IMG/VR virus record: IMGVR_UViG_2519899835_000008
DNA length: 39,548 bases
Reading direction: 5' to 3' (one strand)
Origin: a virus
Lineage: Duplodnaviria > Heunggongvirae > Uroviricota > Caudoviricetes
In this document: piece after piece, positions 17,642 through 39,017 of the stretch
Position numbering within the stretch: position 1 is the stretch's first letter
Layout: the number at the start of each line of letters is the position of its first letter
Notes under the pieces: generated by a model
Told to the model about the DNA's origin: nothing
Database searches by the model: none
Seen by the model: only the letters and a program-made list of their open reading frames with translations
Program-made: the position numbers and the translations under genes

Positions 17642-18205
17642 TTATTCCTCTGACGGTCCGGCGTTTTCACCGGCGGCAGTTGCACCAGGCAGACGGATGT
17701 GTGCCTTAAACTCCGGCGTGCCTTCCGGTTCGGTAAAGGTTTCGTAATGGCGCAGGAAATCATCCAGCGAGCTGATATCCGTCAGCGGGTCGATCATTTC
17801 CTCGCATGAGAAATACAGGGCGTACATCACGGCACCGCTGCCTGCCTGCGTTTCGGTGTAACCGTTGACCGCCTTTTCAAAGTAAAGCGGTGAGGTTTTT
17901 TCTGCTCTGAAGCCGTCCAGCACGGTAATCAGGCGGGCCACAATCTGATAAAGCCCGGGACGGCTGACCTCACGGCCATTGAGCATGTCGCCGATGACGT
18001 AGAACACCCAGTGACTGACCAGACGCCCACGGGTACGCCCTTCACCGGCACCCAGCCAGGCAACATAGATAGCCGGGGCGTTAATCAGCATGGTGCGCAG
18101 TACGCTGTCGCTCCAGTCGCCGGGATGTGTGTCAACAGACACCAGTTCATTCCCGAAATACTCACGGATACGGGCGATGTACGCCTGCTCGGTTTCCGTA
18201 ATCAT
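17642..18205 (-). CDS. Virion morphogenesis protein, Mu gp37-like
   Basis: 187-aa ORF in syntenic position. Confidence 0.55.
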   Translation of the reverse strand: MITETEQAYIARIREYFGNELVSVDTHPGDWSDSVLRTMLINAPAIYVAWLGAGEGRTRGRLVSHWVFYVIGDMLNGREVSRPGLYQIVARLITVLDGFRAEKTSPLYFEKAVNGYTETQAGSGAVMYALYFSCEEMIDPLTDISSLDDFLRHYETFTEPEGTPEFKAHIRLPGATAAGENAGPSEE

Positions 18206-19020: not shown

Positions 19021-19968
19021 TTACAGATAATCCGCGACAACCAGCTCCAGCTTGCCCTTCATCTCGTTAGAGACTGTGGCGTTACCGTCTGCGAACAGCT
19101 CGCGCTCCAGCAGCTGCACCGCCTGTTTTTCCAGCGAGGTGGGGACAACAATATGGGTGGGTTTGATGCCGAGTTTGCGGCCACCGTCAGCCTTAAAGTC
19201 ACGCATGGCTGACCAGCCGTGCCACAGCGCATCCAGCGTCAGCGGTGACTGCATCATGTAGGCCATCTGCCAGAAGCCGTAGCCCACATTGCGACGGGCG
19301 GAAGCACCGAACACAAACTCGTTATCAGTAAACGCACGGCCTTCATCGACTTTTGTCTGGGCAACCAGTTCGGCCTTGCGGCGATCCTGATAAATCAGCG
19401 GTTTTACCGCGCGGGAGCAGTCAAGCAGATACCAGGCCGGGCCGCTGTAATCCACCTGTGCACCGACAGAGCCGGTTTTTGCCACAAACATATTGCTGAC
19501 CATCTGTGCATCACCGGAGCCATCCACTTTGGGGTAAACAGGGTGTTCGGTATCAAAGAAGTTCTGGCCGTCATAGCAGGCCGCATTCAGACCATCACGC
19601 AGTGCAGCAAAGACCAGTTCATCCGGTTGTGCCGCCGCAGCGCGCCCCATCTCCTGGAACAACGGGGAGTAGATGCCAAGATTGTCGTCTTCAAAGTCAT
19701 CGCGGCTAATGGCAACGGTGCCTTCAAAGGTTTTGTTCACGATGGCGTAGCCATAGGCTTTCATCTTCTCGATGACGCGGGAGCCGATCCACTCACGGAA
19801 CTGCGGGAACTGCCCCAGCCAGCCGTAGGTGTTGGATTTCGACGTGGACGGTACGGTCATCGCAATTTTCTGGTACTGAGACGGAGCCATGGACATCCCG
19901 GCCTGAAAATCAGAACGGTAGCCCGTCATCAGGGCGGTGATCATCGCCGGTGTGATCGGGGTAGGCAT
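19021..19968 (-). CDS. Major capsid protein (Mu T-like)
   Basis: 315-aa ORF downstream of protease/scaffold gene; size matches Mu major head subunit. Confidence 0.75.
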   Translation of the reverse strand: MPTPITPAMITALMTGYRSDFQAGMSMAPSQYQKIAMTVPSTSKSNTYGWLGQFPQFREWIGSRVIEKMKAYGYAIVNKTFEGTVAISRDDFEDDNLGIYSPLFQEMGRAAAAQPDELVFAALRDGLNAACYDGQNFFDTEHPVYPKVDGSGDAQMVSNMFVAKTGSVGAQVDYSGPAWYLLDCSRAVKPLIYQDRRKAELVAQTKVDEGRAFTDNEFVFGASARRNVGYGFWQMAYMMQSPLTLDALWHGWSAMRDFKADGGRKLGIKPTHIVVPTSLEKQAVQLLERELFADGNATVSNEMKGKLELVVADYL

Positions 19969-21092
19969 TATTGCATTTCCTCTTTCATTTTCAGGAACTC
20001 GGCTTCGGTTTTACCCAGCAGATGGGCGGCGGCGATATCTTCAGCCGACAGCGCAGCGGTGGCGGTCTTTTTATCCGGCACGGTTACGGTGTCGGTCTGA
20101 AGAGTGGTCAGAGCCGCAACCGGCTGGCGGGCGTCAAGCTGTGCAGAAAGTGCCGCAACACCAATCTGTTGTCCGAGTCCTTCCATGTATCCGCGTTCGC
20201 TTTTGAAAATGCGTCCTTCGGACTCGGCCTTATCCAGCAACTGCTCCAGCGTGGTGCTGCCGTGTTGTGCCGACAACGCGACATATTCGGTACGCAGGGC
20301 GTTATACGTCTCAACGGGCACGTATTTCGTCAGATCAATAGTGCCGCCAGTTGGTGTGCCTTTTGCGGTTTCCAGCTCTGCCGACAGGCTGGCAACCTGC
20401 GTTTTCAGGGTGTCGTGCGCATCCGCACGGGTTTTGATCCCGGTAAGGGCAGACAGCGCCGCCGTGCCCAGTTCCGGTGTAAATTCGTCACCGTCGGCCA
20501 CGGTCAGACCGAGCGCCGTCAGCAACTGGCGTAATTGCTCATTCATGGAGGTGTCCTTTAAAGGAGGGTTTAAGGCGTTATAAAGGTCATCCGCCGACAG
20601 TGCGGCGACAGGATTCATGCCAGTCAGACCGGGGTCACCGGTAATAGCCAGCATCCGAAGCTCAACAGGTTCACCGGTGATTTCGTCATAACCAATCACC
20701 GGGGAAAACCAGGGAAATTCGTTATTGCGCAGGTGTTCAATGGCCGGAGGGTTCCAGTCCGGACGCACTTCAAAACCCCGCTCTTCACTGAAGCGGAAGT
20801 TTTCCGGTGAGGCCATGACAAAACCGGCAGCCGGTGCCGGATGCCCCTTAATCAGGGTCTGGTGGTTGTAGTCAATTTTTACCGGCTGATTGAGCGCCAC
20901 AACCCGGGATACCATGCGCTCAACGGCCGCATGGTTAATCAGCCAGCCTTCCGCCGGTTTTTCCGGGCGACCGTCACGGGCCTTTACCCGACCGGCTGGC
21001 ATGATCTGACACCAGTCACCGTCCCCGTCTGCGGACAGGCTGATGGCATTCAGAATGGCATAAGCAAGTTTGGGCGTGTTTTTCGTCTTCAT
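19968..21092 (-). CDS. Head maturation protease/scaffold protein (Mu I-like)
   Basis: 374-aa ORF with Ala/Leu-rich coiled-coil-like C-terminal half; precedes the major capsid gene. Confidence 0.7.
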   Translation of the reverse strand: MKTKNTPKLAYAILNAISLSADGDGDWCQIMPAGRVKARDGRPEKPAEGWLINHAAVERMVSRVVALNQPVKIDYNHQTLIKGHPAPAAGFVMASPENFRFSEERGFEVRPDWNPPAIEHLRNNEFPWFSPVIGYDEITGEPVELRMLAITGDPGLTGMNPVAALSADDLYNALNPPLKDTSMNEQLRQLLTALGLTVADGDEFTPELGTAALSALTGIKTRADAHDTLKTQVASLSAELETAKGTPTGGTIDLTKYVPVETYNALRTEYVALSAQHGSTTLEQLLDKAESEGRIFKSERGYMEGLGQQIGVAALSAQLDARQPVAALTTLQTDTVTVPDKKTATAALSAEDIAAAHLLGKTEAEFLKMKEEMQ

Positions 21093-21269
21093 TCCGGCAG
21101 CATAAGCCGGTGTTTTTCGGGGCCGGTTTTGCGGGACTTCAGAAAGTGCTGACAGGGGAAAAATGAGAAAGGCGCTTCACGCAGATTTTAAAGCCCGTTA
21201 AATACAGGTTAGAAAATCACGACACGCGCCTGAAGAGGGTAAGGCAATGCGTTTGTATACCTTAAACCA

Positions 21270-26691: not shown

Positions 26692-27273
26692 CTACGCCTT
26701 ACCAAGCAGCATCTGCCTGATACGGAATTCTATCTGCTCGCTCATGCCATCCACGCCGCGCAACTCGTCGGTGACGGCGTTCGCCATCTCTTCAGCAAAT
26801 GCGGCCCGGATTTCTTTTTCACGCTTAATGCTGCGCTCGGCGGCACTTTCCGCACGCTGTGCCGACAGGAGGATGTCCTTAATAAGGCGCATATCCACAT
26901 CGCTGTCGCTGTTCAGGGATTCGGTGGCGGCACGCAGACGGCGGTACATCAGGGCACGGGACATCTCCAGAATCAGTGCCGTGGTTTCACCGGTCGGCTT
27001 ATCCCCCAGTTCGGCCATCATGGCTTTTGTCTGCTCGCGTAAATCACGCAGATTACGGGCAATCAGCTCATTACGGGAGGCTTCCCGGCTGATGGCCGCC
27101 GGTGAAAGCTGCTGCTCTTCCGGCAGGCCTGCCTCACGGATCAGACGGTTGATTTCCTCGCGGATCTGGACCTGCGTCAGGCGTTTTTCACGCAGCATTT
27201 CCAGCAGCGGCTTACGGATGCTGTCGGGGAGCAAATCCACCTTGCGTACACGGCCACGCGTCGGCTTATCCAT
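26692..27273 (-). CDS. Terminase small subunit (Mu gp27-like)
   Basis: 193-aa ORF with basic N-terminus and helical body, directly upstream of the large subunit. Confidence 0.65.
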   Translation of the reverse strand: MDKPTRGRVRKVDLLPDSIRKPLLEMLREKRLTQVQIREEINRLIREAGLPEEQQLSPAAISREASRNELIARNLRDLREQTKAMMAELGDKPTGETTALILEMSRALMYRRLRAATESLNSDSDVDMRLIKDILLSAQRAESAAERSIKREKEIRAAFAEEMANAVTDELRGVDGMSEQIEFRIRQMLLGKA

Positions 27274-28364: not shown

Positions 28365-28719
28365 CAGGCACAGGAACAGAGGCCGCAGGCACTGTTGCCA
28401 GCGACCGGCGGACAACGCTCTGCTGCTCCTCGCTGTGCTGAATGTTCTGTTGCTTTTCATTCGTGGCCGCCTCACTGATTTGTGAAATGAGGTGCAGGGT
28501 GTGCTGCTGATTTGCCAGCACCTGACGCACCTCATCCCGCTCACGCACAAGTACCTGATTATTGCCCTCAAGACGCTGCGTCTTCTGGTGCATTCCCCAT
28601 ATCGCGGCAACCAGTACGGCGATAATCCCCAGCGCCGCCATGCTCGCCCCGGCAATCAGGGCCGGTAAGGGATTGTTCACCACAGCCACAGTGCCCCCCG
28701 CAGCGCCACAACGGCACAT
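28291..28719 (-). CDS. Inner-membrane spanin (Rz-like)
   Basis: N-terminal transmembrane helix AALGIIAVLVAAIWG followed by charged helical periplasmic domain; directly downstream of endolysin; start uncertain. Confidence 0.55.
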   Translation of the reverse strand: MCRCGAAGGTVAVVNNPLPALIAGASMAALGIIAVLVAAIWGMHQKTQRLEGNNQVLVRERDEVRQVLANQQHTLHLISQISEAATNEKQQNIQHSEEQQSVVRRSLATVPAASVPVPDDVAERVRRAVCEIRACAAGSDPR

Positions 28720-28753
28720 AACAGCGCAATCATGAGCGGTCGACAGAGCTGGT

Positions 28754-29254
28754 TCAGACTTTCGGCAAGTCGTAGCGACATAACCATTCATCCGCCGAAC
28801 GGCGGGCCTCAAGGCCGGGGAGTTTCACCCCCTTTGAATAAATCCAGCGGATATACTGCTTACAGGACGCGGGCATCTGTCCGGCATTGATAAGGCGCAG
28901 AAGCGTGGAGTTGCGGAAGTTCGTTTCACCGGCCCAGAAGATCCACGAAGCCAGCGCCACCGTCTGACCACGGGTAAGTGGCACCTGAACACGCCGGTCA
29001 ATGGCCGCAAAGGCCCATTTCATGTCCTTTTCCAGCAGTTCCAGACATTCTTCATCGGTTTTTGTCATACCCGGTTTCACATCCGGGCCGGTATGGCCGT
29101 GGCAGATGGTGGGGGTGCCGGTGGGGTCGAGATACGTGGTGTTTTCTTTCCCTTCCCAGTAGCCGGTGTAGTGCGTGGCAATAGTGAACGTCCCGGCTCC
29201 GGCCAGAACAAGGGCAATCAGCTTTTTACGCAGTGGCGCGGGGAGTTTTGGCAT
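28754..29254 (-). CDS. SAR endolysin (GH24 lysozyme with N-terminal signal-anchor-release domain)
   Basis: 166-aa ORF; weakly hydrophobic N-terminal segment LIALVLAGAGTFTIATHY; lysozyme-like core GTPTICHGHTG...GMTKTDEECLELLEKDMKW...VPLTRGQ resembling P22/P21 lysozymes. Confidence 0.75.
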   Translation of the reverse strand: MPKLPAPLRKKLIALVLAGAGTFTIATHYTGYWEGKENTTYLDPTGTPTICHGHTGPDVKPGMTKTDEECLELLEKDMKWAFAAIDRRVQVPLTRGQTVALASWIFWAGETNFRNSTLLRLINAGQMPASCKQYIRWIYSKGVKLPGLEARRSADEWLCRYDLPKV

Positions 29255-29325
29255 TGTTACGCTGTCTCATGGTGTTCTCTGAGCCAGCGTAACCGTGGAA
29301 AAAAGGGGGCAGGATTTGCGGAATA
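29255..29325 (-). promoter_or_regulatory. Candidate Mor/C-dependent late promoter and leader of the lysis operon
   Basis: Intergenic between activator gene and endolysin; minus-strand GCCCCC tract and a 9-bp inverted repeat GTTACGCTG / CAGCGTAAC ending at the endolysin start codon. Confidence 0.3.
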
Positions 29326-29748
29326 TCAGAAAAGCCGGGGCTGCGTGCGCTCCTGATGCAGGCGACGCTGGTTGCGGATAACGGAGTAAATCTGCGTCTC
29401 TGACATCTGGTAATGGCGGCGCAGGGTTTCAATTTTTTCACCCTGGCTCCAGCGGGAAAAAATCTCATTATTGCGCAGTTCGGTGAAAAGGGATTCACCG
29501 ACCGGGAGATAATAACCACGCCCGCCCATGTACCCGGCCTGTGCGGCCGCAACCTTACGGGCAAGCATTCCCGCCTGAGCAGATTCAATCCCCTGACGGT
29601 GCAGTTCAGCACTGATCACATCAACCAGGTCACGCAGCGTGCCGGGCCAGTTCTTTTTCAGCTCATCATCAGGAATATCATCCAGACGGTCAATCAGCGC
29701 GTGCAGCTGTTCGCTGTCACCAAACATGCTCATCTGTGTTTCAGCCAT
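29326..29748 (-). CDS. Mor/C-family late transcription activator
   Basis: 140-aa ORF with Mor-like pattern (N-terminal acidic FGD..L, central GGRGYYLPVG, C-terminal helix-turn-helix ...TQIYSVIRNQRR); positioned just upstream of the lysis genes. Confidence 0.7.
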   Translation of the reverse strand: MAETQMSMFGDSEQLHALIDRLDDIPDDELKKNWPGTLRDLVDVISAELHRQGIESAQAGMLARKVAAAQAGYMGGRGYYLPVGESLFTELRNNEIFSRWSQGEKIETLRRHYQMSETQIYSVIRNQRRLHQERTQPRLF

Positions 29749-29818
29749 ACCCGCCTCCGGTCATCATTACACAGGGCAAGTTTAAAATAAAAATCCCGCG
29801 CTGTGGCGGGATTTGGGG

Positions 29819-30328
29819 TTAAAAAGGGGAGGATTCTTCATACAGCCTGCAAACGCGCTCATAACTCATCACTGTACGCGCTGACATCCCCAGCACATCC
29901 AGCATCTTGCGACGGTGCCAGCGTTTGAGACGCTCCAGCACATCCGAGGCCAGTGCGGGGTGTTGCTCCAGCCACTGCCAGTTAGCCACACCTTCGCCAC
30001 CGTTCTGCGCGGCCGTCTGCGACTTCACCCAGCGGTTAAGGGCCGTTTCCCCGCCATCAGCGATAAAGCCCTGCCGGTGCATTACCTTCCAGATGGCGCG
30101 AATTTTGGCGGTCACCGTACCCGGTTTTAAGGCCCGGTTAACCGGTTTCTGACGCACTTTAAAACCGCGTTTTTTGAAAACATCCAGCACGCGGGATAAC
30201 TCATCCGGTGACATATCCCGGCAACTGGATTTGCCGGTGGCTGCCAGCAGAACGAATGTATAGGTTTCATCATCCAGGGCAAGCTCGCGCTTTGCCACAT
30301 GAATGGCGGATATCAGTTTCCCTCTCAT
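29819..30328 (-). CDS. GemA-like (Mu gp16-like) regulatory protein
   Basis: 169-aa ORF with N-terminus IHVAKRELALDDETY...TGKSSCRDMSPDELSRVLDVFKKRGF resembling Mu GemA/gp16 family. Confidence 0.55.
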   Translation of the reverse strand: MRGKLISAIHVAKRELALDDETYTFVLLAATGKSSCRDMSPDELSRVLDVFKKRGFKVRQKPVNRALKPGTVTAKIRAIWKVMHRQGFIADGGETALNRWVKSQTAAQNGGEGVANWQWLEQHPALASDVLERLKRWHRRKMLDVLGMSARTVMSYERVCRLYEESSPF

Positions 30329-30621
30329 GCTGTATCAACACTCCTGCTGATATGATAGATATTATTTTCCCGATCGAGCTGAACCCGATACTCCGGAGGA
30401 ATCACAAAAATATTAAAACCATCAACAGTTTTTATTCTTGAGTAGTATTCCCCCTTATGATATCTGGCAAGTGCATTAATCAGAGAAGCCGCCGCCAGCC
30501 CAATCAGGTATTTTTTATGAAAAATACTGATAACTTTCCGGCACAGCCATCGTGTAATGACGAATGCACCGAAAAACGATGTGATATATAAACACCAGAA
30601 CAACTGCGAACTACTGTCCAT
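30325..30621 (-). CDS. Hypothetical membrane protein (98 aa)
   Basis: Two hydrophobic segments (LFWCLYITSFFGAFVITRWL, LIGLAAASLINALA); overlapping start/stop with neighbours. Confidence 0.45.
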   Translation of the reverse strand: MDSSSQLFWCLYITSFFGAFVITRWLCRKVISIFHKKYLIGLAAASLINALARYHKGEYYSRIKTVDGFNIFVIPPEYRVQLDRENNIYHISRSVDTA

Positions 30622-33600: not shown

Positions 33601-34131
33601 TTATTTATTCAGTCCGGCGTCCTGTTCAAAAGGCTCGACATAAAAACTTTCAGCGCCTTTATTCACCTTAATACCGGCAATGCCTTTCACTGCATCCGGC
33701 TCCGCCAGGACCGCTTCCTTGTTCACTTCCTCTTTCGTGCGGATGAATCGCTCAAGCCCCATACGGCGCAGCATTTCAATCACACCTTCCACATCACGGC
33801 TGACGCTGCATGATGGATTTCCCAGCCGCCATGACACTGTTCCGGTGGTCAGATTGGCTGTTTTGGTTTTGCCGCCGTTCGTCAGCTCATCGCGGTTGGT
33901 TTTGCACCAGTCCTGAATCCCCTTAAAAAGCACTTTGATTTCTTTTTTAAGGTTTTCAATCTGCGGCGTATAACGGGCGGTGATTTCTGCCACTTCATCA
34001 TTCATCGCCGTTTCCAGCCGCAGCGCCTCTCGCTGAATATCGCCCAGGGTACGGATATCGCGGCTGACTTCTTCGCGGGTCTGCGGTGCGGCCTCGGCTA
34101 CAGCCTTTAATTTTGTAACGCGTTTTGCCAT
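33601..34131 (-). CDS. gam: Host-nuclease inhibitor Gam (Mu Gam, Ku-like DNA end-binding protein)
   Basis: 176-aa ORF with motifs LRLETAMND..AEIT, WCKTNRDELTNGGKTKTANLTTGTVSWR, GLERFIRTKEEVNKEA, EPFEQDAG closely paralleling Mu Gam. Confidence 0.85.
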   Translation of the reverse strand: MAKRVTKLKAVAEAAPQTREEVSRDIRTLGDIQREALRLETAMNDEVAEITARYTPQIENLKKEIKVLFKGIQDWCKTNRDELTNGGKTKTANLTTGTVSWRLGNPSCSVSRDVEGVIEMLRRMGLERFIRTKEEVNKEAVLAEPDAVKGIAGIKVNKGAESFYVEPFEQDAGLNK

Positions 34132-36487: not shown

Positions 36488-38578
36488 TCAGGCCAGTGGA
36501 TCACTTTCTTTTAATTTTGCTTCGAGCAGTTGCAATCCCCGCTGGAAATTACGCTCGTATTCTTCATCAGGTTCATCGTCAGCGACCGGTTGCTGAACGG
36601 TCACCGTATTACCCACAGGGCGGTATATGTTTTCCAGCCATGGCTCCTGCGGCTTGTGCTCCAGCACGTTGACAACCTCATCCTCGGCATCACGGATTTT
36701 TTCCTCTGCGCGTTTACGCATACCTTTAAGGCGCTGTTGCTGTTTGTAGTATTCCGCGCTGACCGGGAAGGCTTCGCGTTTATTGCCGTCCCATACCGCC
36801 TCGCAAATCACGCTGCCATCCGGGCGACGAACGGTAATTCGTTCGGCATCATGAATGTCATAGCTGATAAGCACCTTGCGGCCATGCTCATCACGCAGCT
36901 CGGGCGCGTAGTAAATATTGTTCAGCCAGCGTATTTCACAGCGTCTTACAGGGCGCTCCACCATCGGCCGGAACATGTCCCGCAATTCCACATCGGACAG
37001 CCATTCAATTTCCGTATCCTCTTCTGCCAGGCGTTTTTTTCTGAACTCCGCCGGGCTGTAATGCTTGCCGTTCGGCTTCACCGGTAATTCATCGTGCGGC
37101 CGGTTGTTGTACCACTCAACACCGTCACGAATGGCATCAATCAGTTCAGACCAGGACGGTAAATCACGCATCGCTGACTGCTGCCGGGCGTTCAGCCGTT
37201 TGCCCTGTTGCAGGGCAGTAAATGCCGAGCGTAAATCGCGGTTGGTTTTACGTAACGTCTCGCGATCTGCACCTTTCCCGAAATAGGTGCGGTATCTGCG
37301 GGCTATGCGCATCGGTAATGTGCGGTTAAGCCGTTCGATAATGCCCCGTCCCTGCGGGTTACCGGCAATTCCGGTCGGGTGATTAATCCCCAGTCGCGGC
37401 AGTATCCCCACAATCTCTTTATCCAGGATGTCGGCCGTTTCCCCGGAGCCGTTATCCGAGTAATACAGAAACGGTTTGCCGTGATGGCGAATACCGTGCT
37501 GTATGGCGCCGGCTACGGCGAAAACATTTTCAGCCAGGTCAAGGCTCCAGCCCACCACAAAGCGCGTGCCACCGTCGATAACAAAGGTCACTTCCGGTGC
37601 AAATGGCCGCCCGTGAACCGGGTGCCTGCATTTCAGCTTCATGCCGTGACCGTCACCAATCCAGACATAATTAACCGGCATTTTTGACCAGTCGCGGCGC
37701 GTGAATCCCTCAAGCTGGCGGTATTCACTGCCGGTCACCCGGCCTTTTTGTTTCACCACTTCCGGCAATTTTTTCATTGCGCGGCGAATAGTGTCATAAG
37801 AGGGCATGATATCGAGCATATAAGGCTCATCAGCGTGCCGGTGCTGCCATTCGGCGACAAAATCCTCGTAAGCCTCGGTCATTGGTCGGCCGTTTGACTG
37901 GCGATACTGCGCCAGAAATTCGGGCAGCCAGTTAATATCTTCGGCTTTTATTTCCTGGCGTTTACCCGGTGCCAGTAAAAGCAGGCGTTCAGCGGCGTTC
38001 TGTGCCTTGTTAAAGGCCGCAATCCAGCGTTTCAGCGTGATTTCACTCAACGCGCGGCGGTTTCCCTTTTTGGCGTTCGCTGTCTCAACCATTGCCACAA
38101 TGCGCTCGTCCAGTTGTGAGCGTGACAGACGGTCAACAATAAACCGGATAGCTTTAGCGCAGCTGAAACCGGGTTGTTGCGCGAATTTCAGCACCTCGCT
38201 GACAATCGCGATTCGTGCATCAGCCACCTGGCGCTGGTTTTCAGTCAGGGCATTGAGGCGTTCGACCATCAGTTGTGGTGAACCGCGATATGCCTCCACC
38301 GCATCAACCACGTCAGGTGAGCGTCTGGCCTTTGTCACCACCGGAGCCGGTGATTCGTCGGCTTTTTGCGTCATCAGTTGCAGGGCGTAGCGTTCACGCA
38401 ATGCCTGCTGCGTCACTTCAGGTAAACAGTCGATGCTGTATTCAGTTGCTTTAGAGCCTGAGCGACGACGGGAACAACAGCTTTTCCCTTGTGCGTAACG
38501 TTGTAATGCCTGGCGAATACCTTTTGTTGTAGCAGGCATTCCGGGCGCGCCAATCAGTTCTTTTGCAATGACATACAT
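36488..38578 (-). CDS. DDE transposase (MuA-like)
   Basis: 696-aa ORF following ner; DDE core region WIGDGHGMK...FVIDGGTRFVVGWSL resembling the Mu transposase catalytic domain. Confidence 0.85.
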   Translation of the reverse strand: MYVIAKELIGAPGMPATTKGIRQALQRYAQGKSCCSRRRSGSKATEYSIDCLPEVTQQALRERYALQLMTQKADESPAPVVTKARRSPDVVDAVEAYRGSPQLMVERLNALTENQRQVADARIAIVSEVLKFAQQPGFSCAKAIRFIVDRLSRSQLDERIVAMVETANAKKGNRRALSEITLKRWIAAFNKAQNAAERLLLLAPGKRQEIKAEDINWLPEFLAQYRQSNGRPMTEAYEDFVAEWQHRHADEPYMLDIMPSYDTIRRAMKKLPEVVKQKGRVTGSEYRQLEGFTRRDWSKMPVNYVWIGDGHGMKLKCRHPVHGRPFAPEVTFVIDGGTRFVVGWSLDLAENVFAVAGAIQHGIRHHGKPFLYYSDNGSGETADILDKEIVGILPRLGINHPTGIAGNPQGRGIIERLNRTLPMRIARRYRTYFGKGADRETLRKTNRDLRSAFTALQQGKRLNARQQSAMRDLPSWSELIDAIRDGVEWYNNRPHDELPVKPNGKHYSPAEFRKKRLAEEDTEIEWLSDVELRDMFRPMVERPVRRCEIRWLNNIYYAPELRDEHGRKVLISYDIHDAERITVRRPDGSVICEAVWDGNKREAFPVSAEYYKQQQRLKGMRKRAEEKIRDAEDEVVNVLEHKPQEPWLENIYRPVGNTVTVQQPVADDEPDEEYERNFQRGLQLLEAKLKESDPLA

Positions 38579-38828: not shown

Positions 38829-39017
38829 ACTTCCTCTATCCTAAAAAGTTACCCGCGCGGATATTCGTACGGATATCTGTACGGGTAAATAATGCATCAC
38901 TAAAAATACCAAATCAAGGTATTTTTGGTATTTTCCTTGTTTTTTCTTTTATCCTTATTTTTCAATTGGATACACAGAAAGAAACCTTTCATTAGAAAAG
39001 CACCAAGAGGTATCTTT
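38829..39017. promoter_or_regulatory. Divergent early promoter / operator region between ner and repressor
   Basis: Near-palindrome CGTACGGATATCTGTACG (38866-38883) flanked by TTACCCG / CGGGTAA; 11-bp inverted repeat AAAATACCAAA / TTTGGTATTTT (38903-38934); AT-rich. Confidence 0.55.

What the first reader, a model, noticed from the sequence alone, without database searches (positions are those of the whole stretch)
29255..29325. Leader hairpin ending at the endolysin start codon
A 9-bp perfect inverted repeat (GTTACGCTG ... CAGCGTAAC, 20-nt spacer) ends 2 nt before the endolysin ATG, in a region lacking a clear Shine-Dalgarno sequence. This could be a translational control structure or part of the activator-dependent late promoter.
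Basis: seen in the sequence. Interest (0 to 1): 0.3.

Follow-up and report, generated by a model that had tools for sequence, protein, structure and literature searches.

The report
Promoter-embedded hairpin masking endolysin start
In this Mu-like prophage the spacer before the endolysin gene can fold into a strong RNA hairpin that hides the gene's start, but the predicted late promoter lies inside the hairpin, so probably only RNA reading in from the upstream activator gene is silenced, as phage T4 does to avoid lysing its host too early.

Summary
The inverted repeat is real: GTTACGCTG (29256-29264) and CAGCGTAAC (29285-29293), with a 20-nt spacer. All genes here are on the minus strand. The repeat fills most of the 71-nt spacer between a Mor/C-family activator gene (29326-29748) and a SAR endolysin gene (28754-29254).

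As RNA it folds at -18.9 kcal/mol (z -4.3) and ends 1 nt before the ATG. It is probably not a leader hairpin of the late lysis mRNA. Its 5' arm contains the -10 hexamer TACGCT of a Mu Plys-type promoter. That promoter is recognised by an activator box, an exact 24-nt spacer and TAnnnT. The layout occurs three times in the window, in Mu Plys, PI and PP, and in every relative examined. The predicted start (29280/29279) falls in the loop, so late mRNA lacks the 5' arm and is unstructured.

No terminator separates the activator gene from lys, so read-through RNA would carry the whole hairpin. Predicted opening cost of the start region is 14.3 kcal/mol in read-through RNA against 3.1 in late RNA.

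Twelve other Mu-like lineages, Mu included, show the same promoter-core/start-site complementarity with different sequences (Fisher p 2e-7 to 3e-4). This is a T4 gene e-type translational mask. No experiment supports it yet.

The parts
29326..29748 (-). Mor/C-family late-gene activator gene (140 aa); source of the read-through RNA
   Evidence: PF08765 Mor, E 5e-31. 40% identity to Mu C and 27% to Mu Mor. It is the only Mor-family gene found in the window.
29316..29336 (-). Predicted activator box GGCTTTTCTGATATTCCGCAA, ending 24 nt before the -10; it overlaps the stop codon of the activator gene
   Evidence: CCGCAA-N23-25-TANNCT occurs 3 times in the window, all on the - strand and intergenic; 0.23 expected, 0 of 100 shuffles reach 3. 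The 24-nt spacing is identical in 13 representative relatives and in 4 further lineages, and in Mu Plys, PI and PP.
29292..29315 (-). 24-nt promoter spacer with a variable C/T tract (CCCCCTTTTTT)
   Evidence: It is the most variable part of the spacer in this lineage. Mu Plys has a 6-T run at the same place (PMC4461284 figure legend).
29286..29291 (-). Predicted -10 hexamer TACGCT of the Plys-type late promoter, inside the 5' arm of the repeat
   Evidence: It aligns with Mu TAGACT: TACGCTGGCTCAGAGAA against TAGACTGCCATCAGAGAA.
29279..29280 (-). Predicted late transcription start (A29280 or G29279), in the hairpin loop
   Evidence: In Mu Plys, PI and PP the start is about the 7th nt after the hexamer. 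This comes from the oligo design in PMC4461284 Table 1, which is based on S1 mapping. Inferred here by homology, not mapped.
29285..29293 (-). 5' arm of the hairpin (GUUACGCUG); absent from the predicted late mRNA
29256..29264 (-). 3' arm of the hairpin (CAGCGUAAC), ending 1 nt before the lys AUG
29265..29284 (-). Spacer between the arms. It holds an inner 4-bp stem (29280-29283 / 29266-29269), a 10-nt loop, and an out-of-frame AUG (29270-29268) that opens a 14-codon ORF ending at 29226
   Evidence: Folds; ORF list. Positions 29284 and 29272 vary among relatives; the stems do not.
28754..29254 (-). SAR-type endolysin gene whose start region is masked
   Evidence: PF00959, E 1e-35. The N-terminal MPKLP.LRKK start is conserved in relatives. 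Annotated as lysozyme in E. coli genomes.
29791..29814 (-). Terminator-like palindrome plus T-run between gemA and the activator gene. It is the only terminator-like site in 28700-30400; none lies between the activator gene and lys

Best explanation
The repeat is a promoter-embedded translational mask of the T4 gene e type.

The spacer between the activator gene and lys holds a Mu Plys-type promoter that depends on a C-like activator: box at 29336-29316, 24-nt spacer, -10 TACGCT at 29291-29286, start near 29280. The -10 lies inside the 5' arm of the repeat.

RNA made earlier, which carries the activator gene and runs into lys because no terminator intervenes, contains both arms. It folds into a hairpin of about -19 kcal/mol that ends 1 nt before the AUG of a gene with no Shine-Dalgarno. 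The SAR endolysin, which the Sec system exports without a holin, is therefore not translated prematurely.

Once the activator has accumulated, transcription starts inside the loop. The late mRNA lacks the 5' arm, its start region is open, and lys is translated.

Shown here: the repeat, its predicted stability, its conservation, the promoter signature and spacing, the absence of a terminator motif, and the recurrence of the architecture in other lineages. Inferred: the transcription start, the existence of read-through RNA, and the translational block.
For: Structure
- The hairpin folds at -18.9 kcal/mol, z -4.3.
- RNA from the predicted start folds at only -2.9, z -0.9.
- Opening the start region costs 14.3 kcal/mol in read-through RNA and 3.1 in late RNA. 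With the upstream part shuffled it costs 5.6 +/- 1.8, and 0 of 100 shuffles reach the observed value.

Promoter
- The box-N24-TAnnCT signature occurs 3 times in the window. It lies upstream of lys, of the Mu I-protein homologue and of a tail-fibre-like gene.
- The 24-nt spacing is identical in all relatives and in Mu Plys, PI and PP, whose starts are about the 7th nt after the hexamer.

Read-through
- No terminator-like site lies between the activator gene and lys.
- Mu and several relatives do have one there.
- This lineage, which has no terminator-like hairpin there, has one of the strongest masks (local duplex -20.2 and -19.4 kcal/mol); only L007 (-22.1) is stronger close to the promoter.

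Recurrence with different sequences
- Mu: CUGCCAUCA/UGAUGGCGG over the start codon, -13.9 kcal/mol.
- L009: CUCUCGGC/GCCGGAGAG.
- L007: a 19-bp hairpin with the -10 in its loop.
- L061, L052, L314, L316, L318 and L340 also show it.
- Fisher combination over 12 lineages, excluding the window's own: p 2e-7 with a shuffle null and 3e-4 with natural upstream 19-mers as null.
- G-U/A-U exchanges occur in stems, for example GAGUGAC against GAGUAAC, and one G-C to U-A double change separates the window type from the L046-L051 type.

Precedent
- T4 genes e, soc, 49 and I-TevI (PMC3014915).
Against: - No transcription start, transcript or translation data exist for this prophage. The start is inferred from Mu.
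- Within the window's own lineage the stems never vary. There is no covariation there, and both arms are also constrained as -10 hexamer and start region.
- Support in individual lineages is often weak: p 0.05-0.5 for the L046-L051, L054/L057 and L007 core tests. In five representatives the best partner of the start region lies further upstream.
- Lineages are not fully independent.
- Mu PI shows the same complementarity, although the transcripts upstream of it are themselves late. So 'preventing premature expression' cannot be the whole rationale.
- In this window three other genes have upstream complementarity nearly as strong (-18 to -19 kcal/mol).
Confidence: 0.6

Rival explanations
1. Leader hairpin of the late lysis mRNA. 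The late transcript starts upstream of the repeat. The hairpin then regulates translation or stability of the late lys mRNA itself, perhaps opened by a factor or by ribosomes on the loop ORF.
For: The hairpin is strong and abuts the AUG. lys has no Shine-Dalgarno. The loop holds an AUG with a weak purine run upstream. The start is not mapped for this phage.
Against: The only promoter signature in the spacer puts the -10 inside the 5' arm. The sigma-70 consensus scan found nothing further upstream in the spacer. The mapped Mu starts lie about 7 nt after the homologous hexamer. A constitutively masked start with no Shine-Dalgarno would leave the late mRNA almost untranslatable. The loop ORF is absent from other lineages.
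Confidence: 0.1
2. DNA-level element. The palindrome is an operator for a phage or host protein, or a cruciform-prone site, that represses or tunes the late promoter by covering its -10 and start.
For: Perfect 9-bp arms overlap the -10 and the initially transcribed region. They are invariant in this lineage.
Against: The half-site is not enriched and does not recur in regulatory regions: 13 near-matches against 7.2 expected, and one other exact copy at 405-413. The arm centres are 29 bp apart. In other lineages the arms differ in sequence, register and position (5' arm from -30 to +3, 3' arm from -16 to +11). They tolerate G-U pairs and bulges, which fits RNA pairing rather than a protein site.
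Confidence: 0.1
3. 3'-end or processing element of the activator mRNA. The hairpin stabilises the upstream activator message against 3' exonucleases, or is an RNase cleavage site, and its effect on lys is secondary.
For: It lies 33 nt after the activator stop codon. No terminator hairpin is present in this lineage to protect that 3' end.
Against: There is no U-run, so it cannot itself create a 3' end. In lineages that do have a terminator after the activator gene, the promoter-core/start-site complementarity is still present. The 3' arm is consistently placed at the lys start site, which this role does not require.
Confidence: 0.1
4. No function. The -10 region and the start region are complementary by chance and are conserved only for their separate roles.
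For: 9-bp repeats are common in this window. Stem invariance is confounded with promoter and start-site constraint. Other genes show complementarity nearly as strong.
Against: z -4.3 for the fold. p 0.001 for core against start-site pairing. Recurrence in 12 other lineages with unrelated arm sequences, p 2e-7 to 3e-4.
Confidence: 0.1

Closest known systems
Phage T4 gene e (lysozyme) start-site hairpin with internal late promoters; also T4 soc, 49 and I-TevI (McPheeters et al. 1986, as reviewed in PMC3014915)
   Same: The target is a lysozyme gene. Long transcripts from upstream form a helix that sequesters the start region. [quoted passage not shown] The rationale is avoidance of premature lysis.
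   Different: This is an unrelated phage, a Mu-like transposable prophage. The promoter is sigma-70 with a Mor/C-family activator, not the T4 gp55 TATAAATA type. The masked gene has no Shine-Dalgarno, so the helix abuts the AUG rather than covering an SD. Nothing has been tested experimentally here.
Phage Mu Plys, the C-dependent late promoter upstream of lys (Margolin et al. 1989; Chiang and Howe 1993; cited through PMC2582627 and PMC4461284)
   Same: Same gene order (activator gene, promoter, SAR endolysin). A -10 of type TAnnnT without a -35. An activator box ending exactly 24 nt before the -10. A T-run in the spacer. A similar start region, TCAGAGAA. Mu also has a 9-bp pairing between its promoter core and the lys start codon. 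I found no mention of this in the Mu papers read.
   Different: The box sequence differs: ..TTCCGCAA here, ..CACCATAA in Mu. There is no terminator between the activator gene and the promoter. A single Mor/C-family gene replaces the Mor then C cascade. The hairpin is stronger: -18.9 against -13.9 kcal/mol.
Intrinsic (Rho-independent) terminator
   Same: A G+C-containing stem-loop in an intergenic spacer just after a gene.
   Different: There is no U-run after the stem (AAUGCCAAAACUCC) and the loop is 20 nt. The terminator scan did not call it.

Membership tests
T4 gene e-type start-site mask with internal late promoter | A stable RNA helix sequesters the Shine-Dalgarno and/or start codon of the gene in long transcripts | tested here: met
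   Prediction only. Hairpin -18.9 kcal/mol, z -4.3, 3' arm ending 1 nt before the AUG. Opening energy 14.3 against 5.6 +/- 1.8 for shuffled upstream sequence.
T4 gene e-type start-site mask with internal late promoter | A late promoter lies within the DNA that encodes the 5' strand, so late transcripts lack that strand | tested here: met
   By sequence and homology, not by mapping. The -10 TACGCT (29291-29286) is inside the 5' arm. The signature occurs 3 times in the window. The 24-nt spacing is shared with mapped Mu promoters and all relatives. The predicted late RNA is unstructured.
T4 gene e-type start-site mask with internal late promoter | Earlier transcripts from upstream extend into the gene | tested here: inconclusive
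   No terminator-like site lies between the activator gene and lys, so read-through is expected. No transcript data are available.
T4 gene e-type start-site mask with internal late promoter | Translation is reduced on long transcripts relative to late transcripts | not testable with these tools
   Needs translational fusions or toeprinting.
Mu-type C/Mor-dependent late promoter (Plys) | A Mor/C-family activator is encoded by the phage | tested here: met
   PF08765, E 5e-31; 40% identity to Mu C.
Mu-type C/Mor-dependent late promoter (Plys) | A recognisable -10 hexamer without a -35 hexamer | tested here: met
   TACGCT keeps T-12, A-11 and T-7. The sigma-70 scan, which needs both hexamers, finds no promoter in the spacer.
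Mu-type C/Mor-dependent late promoter (Plys) | An activator site of about 16-19 bp overlapping the -35 region at a fixed distance from the -10 (centred near -43.5 in Mu) | tested here: met
   A conserved box ends exactly 24 nt before the -10, as in Mu Plys, PI and PP and in all lineages examined. The box sequence differs from Mu's, and its dyad symmetry is weak (TTTTCTGA / TTCCGCAAA).
Mu-type C/Mor-dependent late promoter (Plys) | The same signature lies upstream of several late operons | tested here: met
   Three copies: lys, the I-protein homologue and a tail-fibre-like gene; 0.23 expected by chance.
Mu-type C/Mor-dependent late promoter (Plys) | Transcription depends on the activator protein | not testable with these tools
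   Needs a promoter fusion with and without the activator.
Intrinsic terminator | A G+C-rich stem with a short loop followed by a U-run | tested here: not met
   Not called by the scan. The stem is followed by AAUGCCAAAACUCC.
Any curated Rfam family | A match at or above the family's gathering score | tested here: not met
   There is no match at the site even at E <= 1. All six weak matches lie elsewhere and fall far below their gathering scores.

The most novel reading that the evidence does not exclude
Complementarity between the core of the C-dependent late promoter (-16 to +3) and the start region of the first downstream gene may be a conserved design rule of Mu-like transposable phages. 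It would include Mu itself at both Plys and PI. Under this rule, lys (and I) can be translated only from transcripts that start at their own activator-dependent promoter. Any RNA that reads in from early or middle operons, or from host genes flanking the randomly inserted prophage, would be translationally silent. In single-activator relatives such as this one, which have no terminator after the activator gene, the hairpin would be the only barrier against premature or leaky synthesis of a holin-independent SAR endolysin.
Probability: 0.4. Interest if true: 0.55.

Novelty: new member of a known kind. Interest (0 to 1): 0.4.

Why it matters
If correct, lysis timing in this widespread family of E. 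coli and Shigella Mu-like prophages has a second lock besides activator-dependent transcription. The family is present in 231 of 5426 complete E. coli genomes, including the O157 Sp18 type. Under this lock the endolysin message would be translatable only when it starts at its own late promoter.

This matters because SAR endolysins are exported without a holin, so leaky synthesis is dangerous for the host cell. It also matters because a randomly inserted transposable prophage is exposed to transcription from outside.

It would also add an overlooked post-transcriptional layer to phage Mu, where both Plys and PI show the same pairing. It would be a case of convergence with phage T4 using a different promoter class.

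Practically, it warns that constructs expressing these lys genes from upstream promoters may be silent unless the 5' arm is removed.

Tried and rejected
- Searching the half-site GTTACGCTG elsewhere in the window as a possible protein-binding motif: not enriched.
- Rfam scan of 28900-29900 at E <= 1: nothing at the site.
- Intrinsic terminator reading: no U-run, not called.
- Genome-collection search with the activator protein found nothing. With an alignment it found only two Pasteurellaceae loci that have no lys next to the activator gene.
- A degenerate DNA pattern for the promoter plus lys start, run against metagenomes, returned 120 loci. Only 3 were real, and all were the window's own lineage. 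The same pattern against viral contigs gave no new lineage.
- Within-lineage covariation: impossible, because the stems are invariant.
- A formal covariance model was not built, because the helices of different lineages are not in register.
- The outer extension of the helix (UUUU/AAAA and CA/UG over the AUG) is not conserved in the 87%-identical relatives, so it was dropped from the model.
- I asked whether the palindrome upstream of the activator gene (29791-29814) is a binding site for the same activator. The half-site orientation differs from the late boxes, so this is left open.
- The original S1-mapping paper (Margolin et al. 1989) is not held. Mu start sites were taken indirectly from the oligo design in PMC4461284.

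Full report
**Context**

The window is a Mu-like transposable prophage whose genes lie on the minus strand. Recognisable genes are:
- transposase, 36488-38578
- Gam, 33601-34131
- GemA, 29819-30328
- a Mor/C-family activator, 29326-29748
- a lysozyme, 28754-29254
- spanin and TraR-like genes
- gp27, 26692-27273
- the I-protein homologue, 19968-21092
- a Gin-like invertase, 5183-5755
- Mom, 683-1420

A 301-bp stretch around the site (29150-29450) is identical to E. coli FORC_069. Relatives occur in 231 of 5426 complete E. coli genomes, mostly an 87%-identical type found in many O157 and other STEC strains. The finding's coordinates, 29255-29325, are exactly the 71-nt spacer between the activator gene and lys.

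**The observation**

The 9-bp perfect inverted repeat with a 20-nt spacer is present as described.

On the coding strand the RNA reads:

5'-GUUACGCUG-G-CUCA-GAGAACACCA-UGAG-A-CAGCGUAAC-A-AUG

The core fold is -18.9 kcal/mol, z -4.3, with 0 of 200 dinucleotide shuffles as stable. No Shine-Dalgarno precedes the AUG.

Repeats of this size are not rare in the window. The case therefore rests on position, stability and conservation:
- The lys start region has the strongest upstream complementarity of 46 genes in the window.
- Among 13 unique versions of this lineage, 0 of 26 stem positions vary against 13 of 45 other spacer positions (p 0.0013).
- This conservation is confounded, because the arms also serve as -10 hexamer and start region.

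**What else is in the spacer**

Three intergenic regions of the window share one layout: a box ending in CCGCAA, then 23-24 nt, then TAnnCT. They lie upstream of lys, upstream of the Mu I-protein homologue, and upstream of a tail-fibre-like gene. All three are on the coding strand. The chance expectation is 0.23 and 0 of 100 shuffles reach three.

In Mu, late promoters lack a -35. They have a -10 hexamer and a C-protein site overlapping the -35 region (PMC2582627). The Plys, PI and PP oligonucleotides of PMC4461284 all show ..CATAA, exactly 24 nt, then TAGACT, CAAACT or TATCCT. They place the mapped start at about the 7th nt after the hexamer.

The same exact 24-nt spacing holds in all 13 representative junctions that I collected from relatives whose activators are 40-100% identical. 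It holds in three of the four further lineages (L314, L316, L318); L340 fits only if its box is read as ending in ..GAA rather than ..CATAA, which is 27 nt from the hexamer. The window and Mu also align directly around the start: TACGCTGGCTCAGAGAA against TAGACTGCCATCAGAGAA.

I therefore assign:
- TACGCT (29291-29286) as the -10 of a Plys-type promoter
- A29280 or G29279 as the start

The hexamer lies inside the 5' arm, and the start lies in the loop.

**Consequence**

RNA starting at 29280 lacks the 5' arm and is essentially unstructured (-2.9 kcal/mol, z -0.9).

RNA arriving from upstream contains both arms. The energy needed to open the start region (-14 to +6) is:
- 14.3 kcal/mol in read-through RNA
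- 3.1 kcal/mol in the predicted late RNA
- 5.6 +/- 1.8 kcal/mol when the upstream part is shuffled

No terminator-like site lies between the activator gene and lys. Mu and several relatives have one there.

The core 5' arm begins 33 nt after the activator stop codon. By my reasoning a terminating ribosome would not melt it.

The activator is the only Mor-family gene in the window. Whatever transcribes it early would therefore also transcribe lys.

**Comparative test**

I collected junctions from E. coli genomes, public assemblies and IMG/VR.

The window's own lineage and its 87% relatives keep the stems unchanged. More distant lineages have different sequences but the same arrangement. A segment overlapping the -10 and start, or lying just upstream of it in L007, pairs with the lys start region:

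| Lineage | 5' segment / 3' segment | Note |
|---|---|---|
| L009 | CUCUCGGC / GCCGGAGAG | covers the Shine-Dalgarno |
| L046-L051 | GUUACUC / GAGUGAC or GAGUAAC | G-U to A-U exchange; one G-C to U-A double change relative to the window |
| L043, L045 | GGUACAGG / CCUGUGCC | covers the GUG start |
| L007 | 19-bp hairpin | -10 in the loop; -24.1 kcal/mol, z -3.9 |
| L052, L054, L061 | various | |
| L314 | UAUCC-U-GUUCG / CGAACGGAUA | |
| L316 | UUCUGUCGUU / AACGGACAGAA | |
| L318 | UUAUC..AGUCGA / UCGACU..GAUAA | |
| L340 | UCGGUUUA / UAAACCGA | includes the A of the AUG |
| Mu | CUGCCAUCA / UGAUGGCGG | covers the start codon; -13.9 kcal/mol, z -2.4; late RNA unstructured |

I scored the duplex between promoter core (-16 to +3) and start region (-14 to +8) against shuffled cores. 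This gives p 0.001 for the window. The Fisher combination over 12 lineages, excluding the window's and taking the worst member of each, gives:
- p 2e-7 with the shuffle null
- p 3e-4 with natural upstream 19-mers as null

Caveats:
- Lineages are related.
- Several individual p values are weak.
- In five representatives a GC-rich terminator segment further upstream pairs even better.

**Mechanism and rivals**

The best-supported reading is a T4 gene e-type mask. In T4, longer early transcripts that extend into e form an inhibitory structure over the start region. Late promoters lie in the DNA for the 5' strand, so late transcripts are translated (PMC3014915).

I give this reading 0.6. The rivals each get about 0.1:
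- a true leader hairpin of the late mRNA
- a DNA operator
- a stabiliser of the activator mRNA
- chance

The variable register, bulges and G-U pairs across lineages favour RNA pairing over a protein site.

One observation complicates the 'premature lysis' rationale. Mu PI has the same feature (CTGCTCA/TGAGCAG, -14.7 kcal/mol, z -4.6; p 0.0015), although the transcripts upstream of it are late. The rule may be broader: translation only from transcripts that start at the gene's own promoter.

**Novelty**

The kind of mechanism is known from T4.

I found no description of it for Mu or Mu-like phages in the papers searched or read. That library is incomplete, and the original mapping paper was not available.

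I rate this a new member of a known kind, of moderate interest. All functional steps remain untested.

Noticed in passing
window 21099-21134 (-) and 5133-5167 (-): Two more copies of the predicted late-promoter signature (CCGCAA-N23/24-TAnnCT). One is upstream of the Mu I-protein homologue (19968-21092), as for Mu PI. The other is upstream of a SASA/DUF6645 tail-fibre-like gene (3043-5097) that lies just after the Gin-like invertase gene. No copy was found for a PP or Pmom equivalent.
   Followed up: partly
window 21092-21104 (-): The predicted PI -10 (TATGCT, 21104-21099) ends only 6 nt before the ATG of the I-protein homologue. The late transcript would therefore be leaderless or nearly so, unless the true start codon lies downstream. 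A 5-bp CCGGC/GCCGG stem brackets the hexamer.
   Followed up: partly
L087 2018-2068 (Mu 18017-18067, PI region): Mu PI has a perfect 7-bp repeat, CTGCTCA/TGAGCAG, joining the transcription start to the region just upstream of the gene I Shine-Dalgarno. The fold is -14.7 kcal/mol, z -4.6; duplex test p 0.0015. This is the same architecture as at lys, but at a promoter whose upstream transcripts are already late.
   Followed up: partly
window 29749-29818 (-): Between gemA and the activator gene lies a 9-bp palindrome (AAATCCCGC..GCGGGATTT) with a T-run, followed by CCTGTGTAATGAT. This resembles Mu's early terminator overlapping the middle promoter Pm. This phage has no separate mor gene, so how the single activator is first expressed (terminator read-through, or autoactivation) is unexplained.
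   Followed up: partly
window 29226-29270 (-): An out-of-frame AUG (29270-29268) in the hairpin loop opens a 14-codon ORF (MRQRNNAKTPRATA). It overlaps the lys start and would lie about 10 nt from the predicted late 5' end. It is conserved in this lineage only because the sequence is invariant, and it is absent from other lineages. It could compete with or couple to lys initiation.
   Followed up: no
window 29295-29310 (-): The C/T tract in the promoter spacer (CCCCCTTTTTT) is the most variable stretch among close relatives. Variants include CCCCTTTTTTC, CCCACTTTTTC and CCGCCTTTCCTT. It may be a slippage-prone run that could tune promoter strength. Mu Plys has a 6-T run at the same place.
   Followed up: no
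window 1803-1874, 2994-3028, 38902-38934: Other perfect inverted repeats of 9-12 bp lie in non-coding stretches near the Mom end and near the left (repressor/operator) end of the prophage. The cluster at 38902-38934 lies between the transposase operon and a divergent + strand ORF, and may belong to the early operator region.
   Followed up: no
L008 and L011 (relatives from public assemblies): In two relatives the called activator product is longer (170-173 aa) and runs into or overlaps the lys start, apparently through frameshifts or assembly errors at the end of the activator gene. The spacer sequence itself is the O157 type, with the repeat intact.
   Followed up: no
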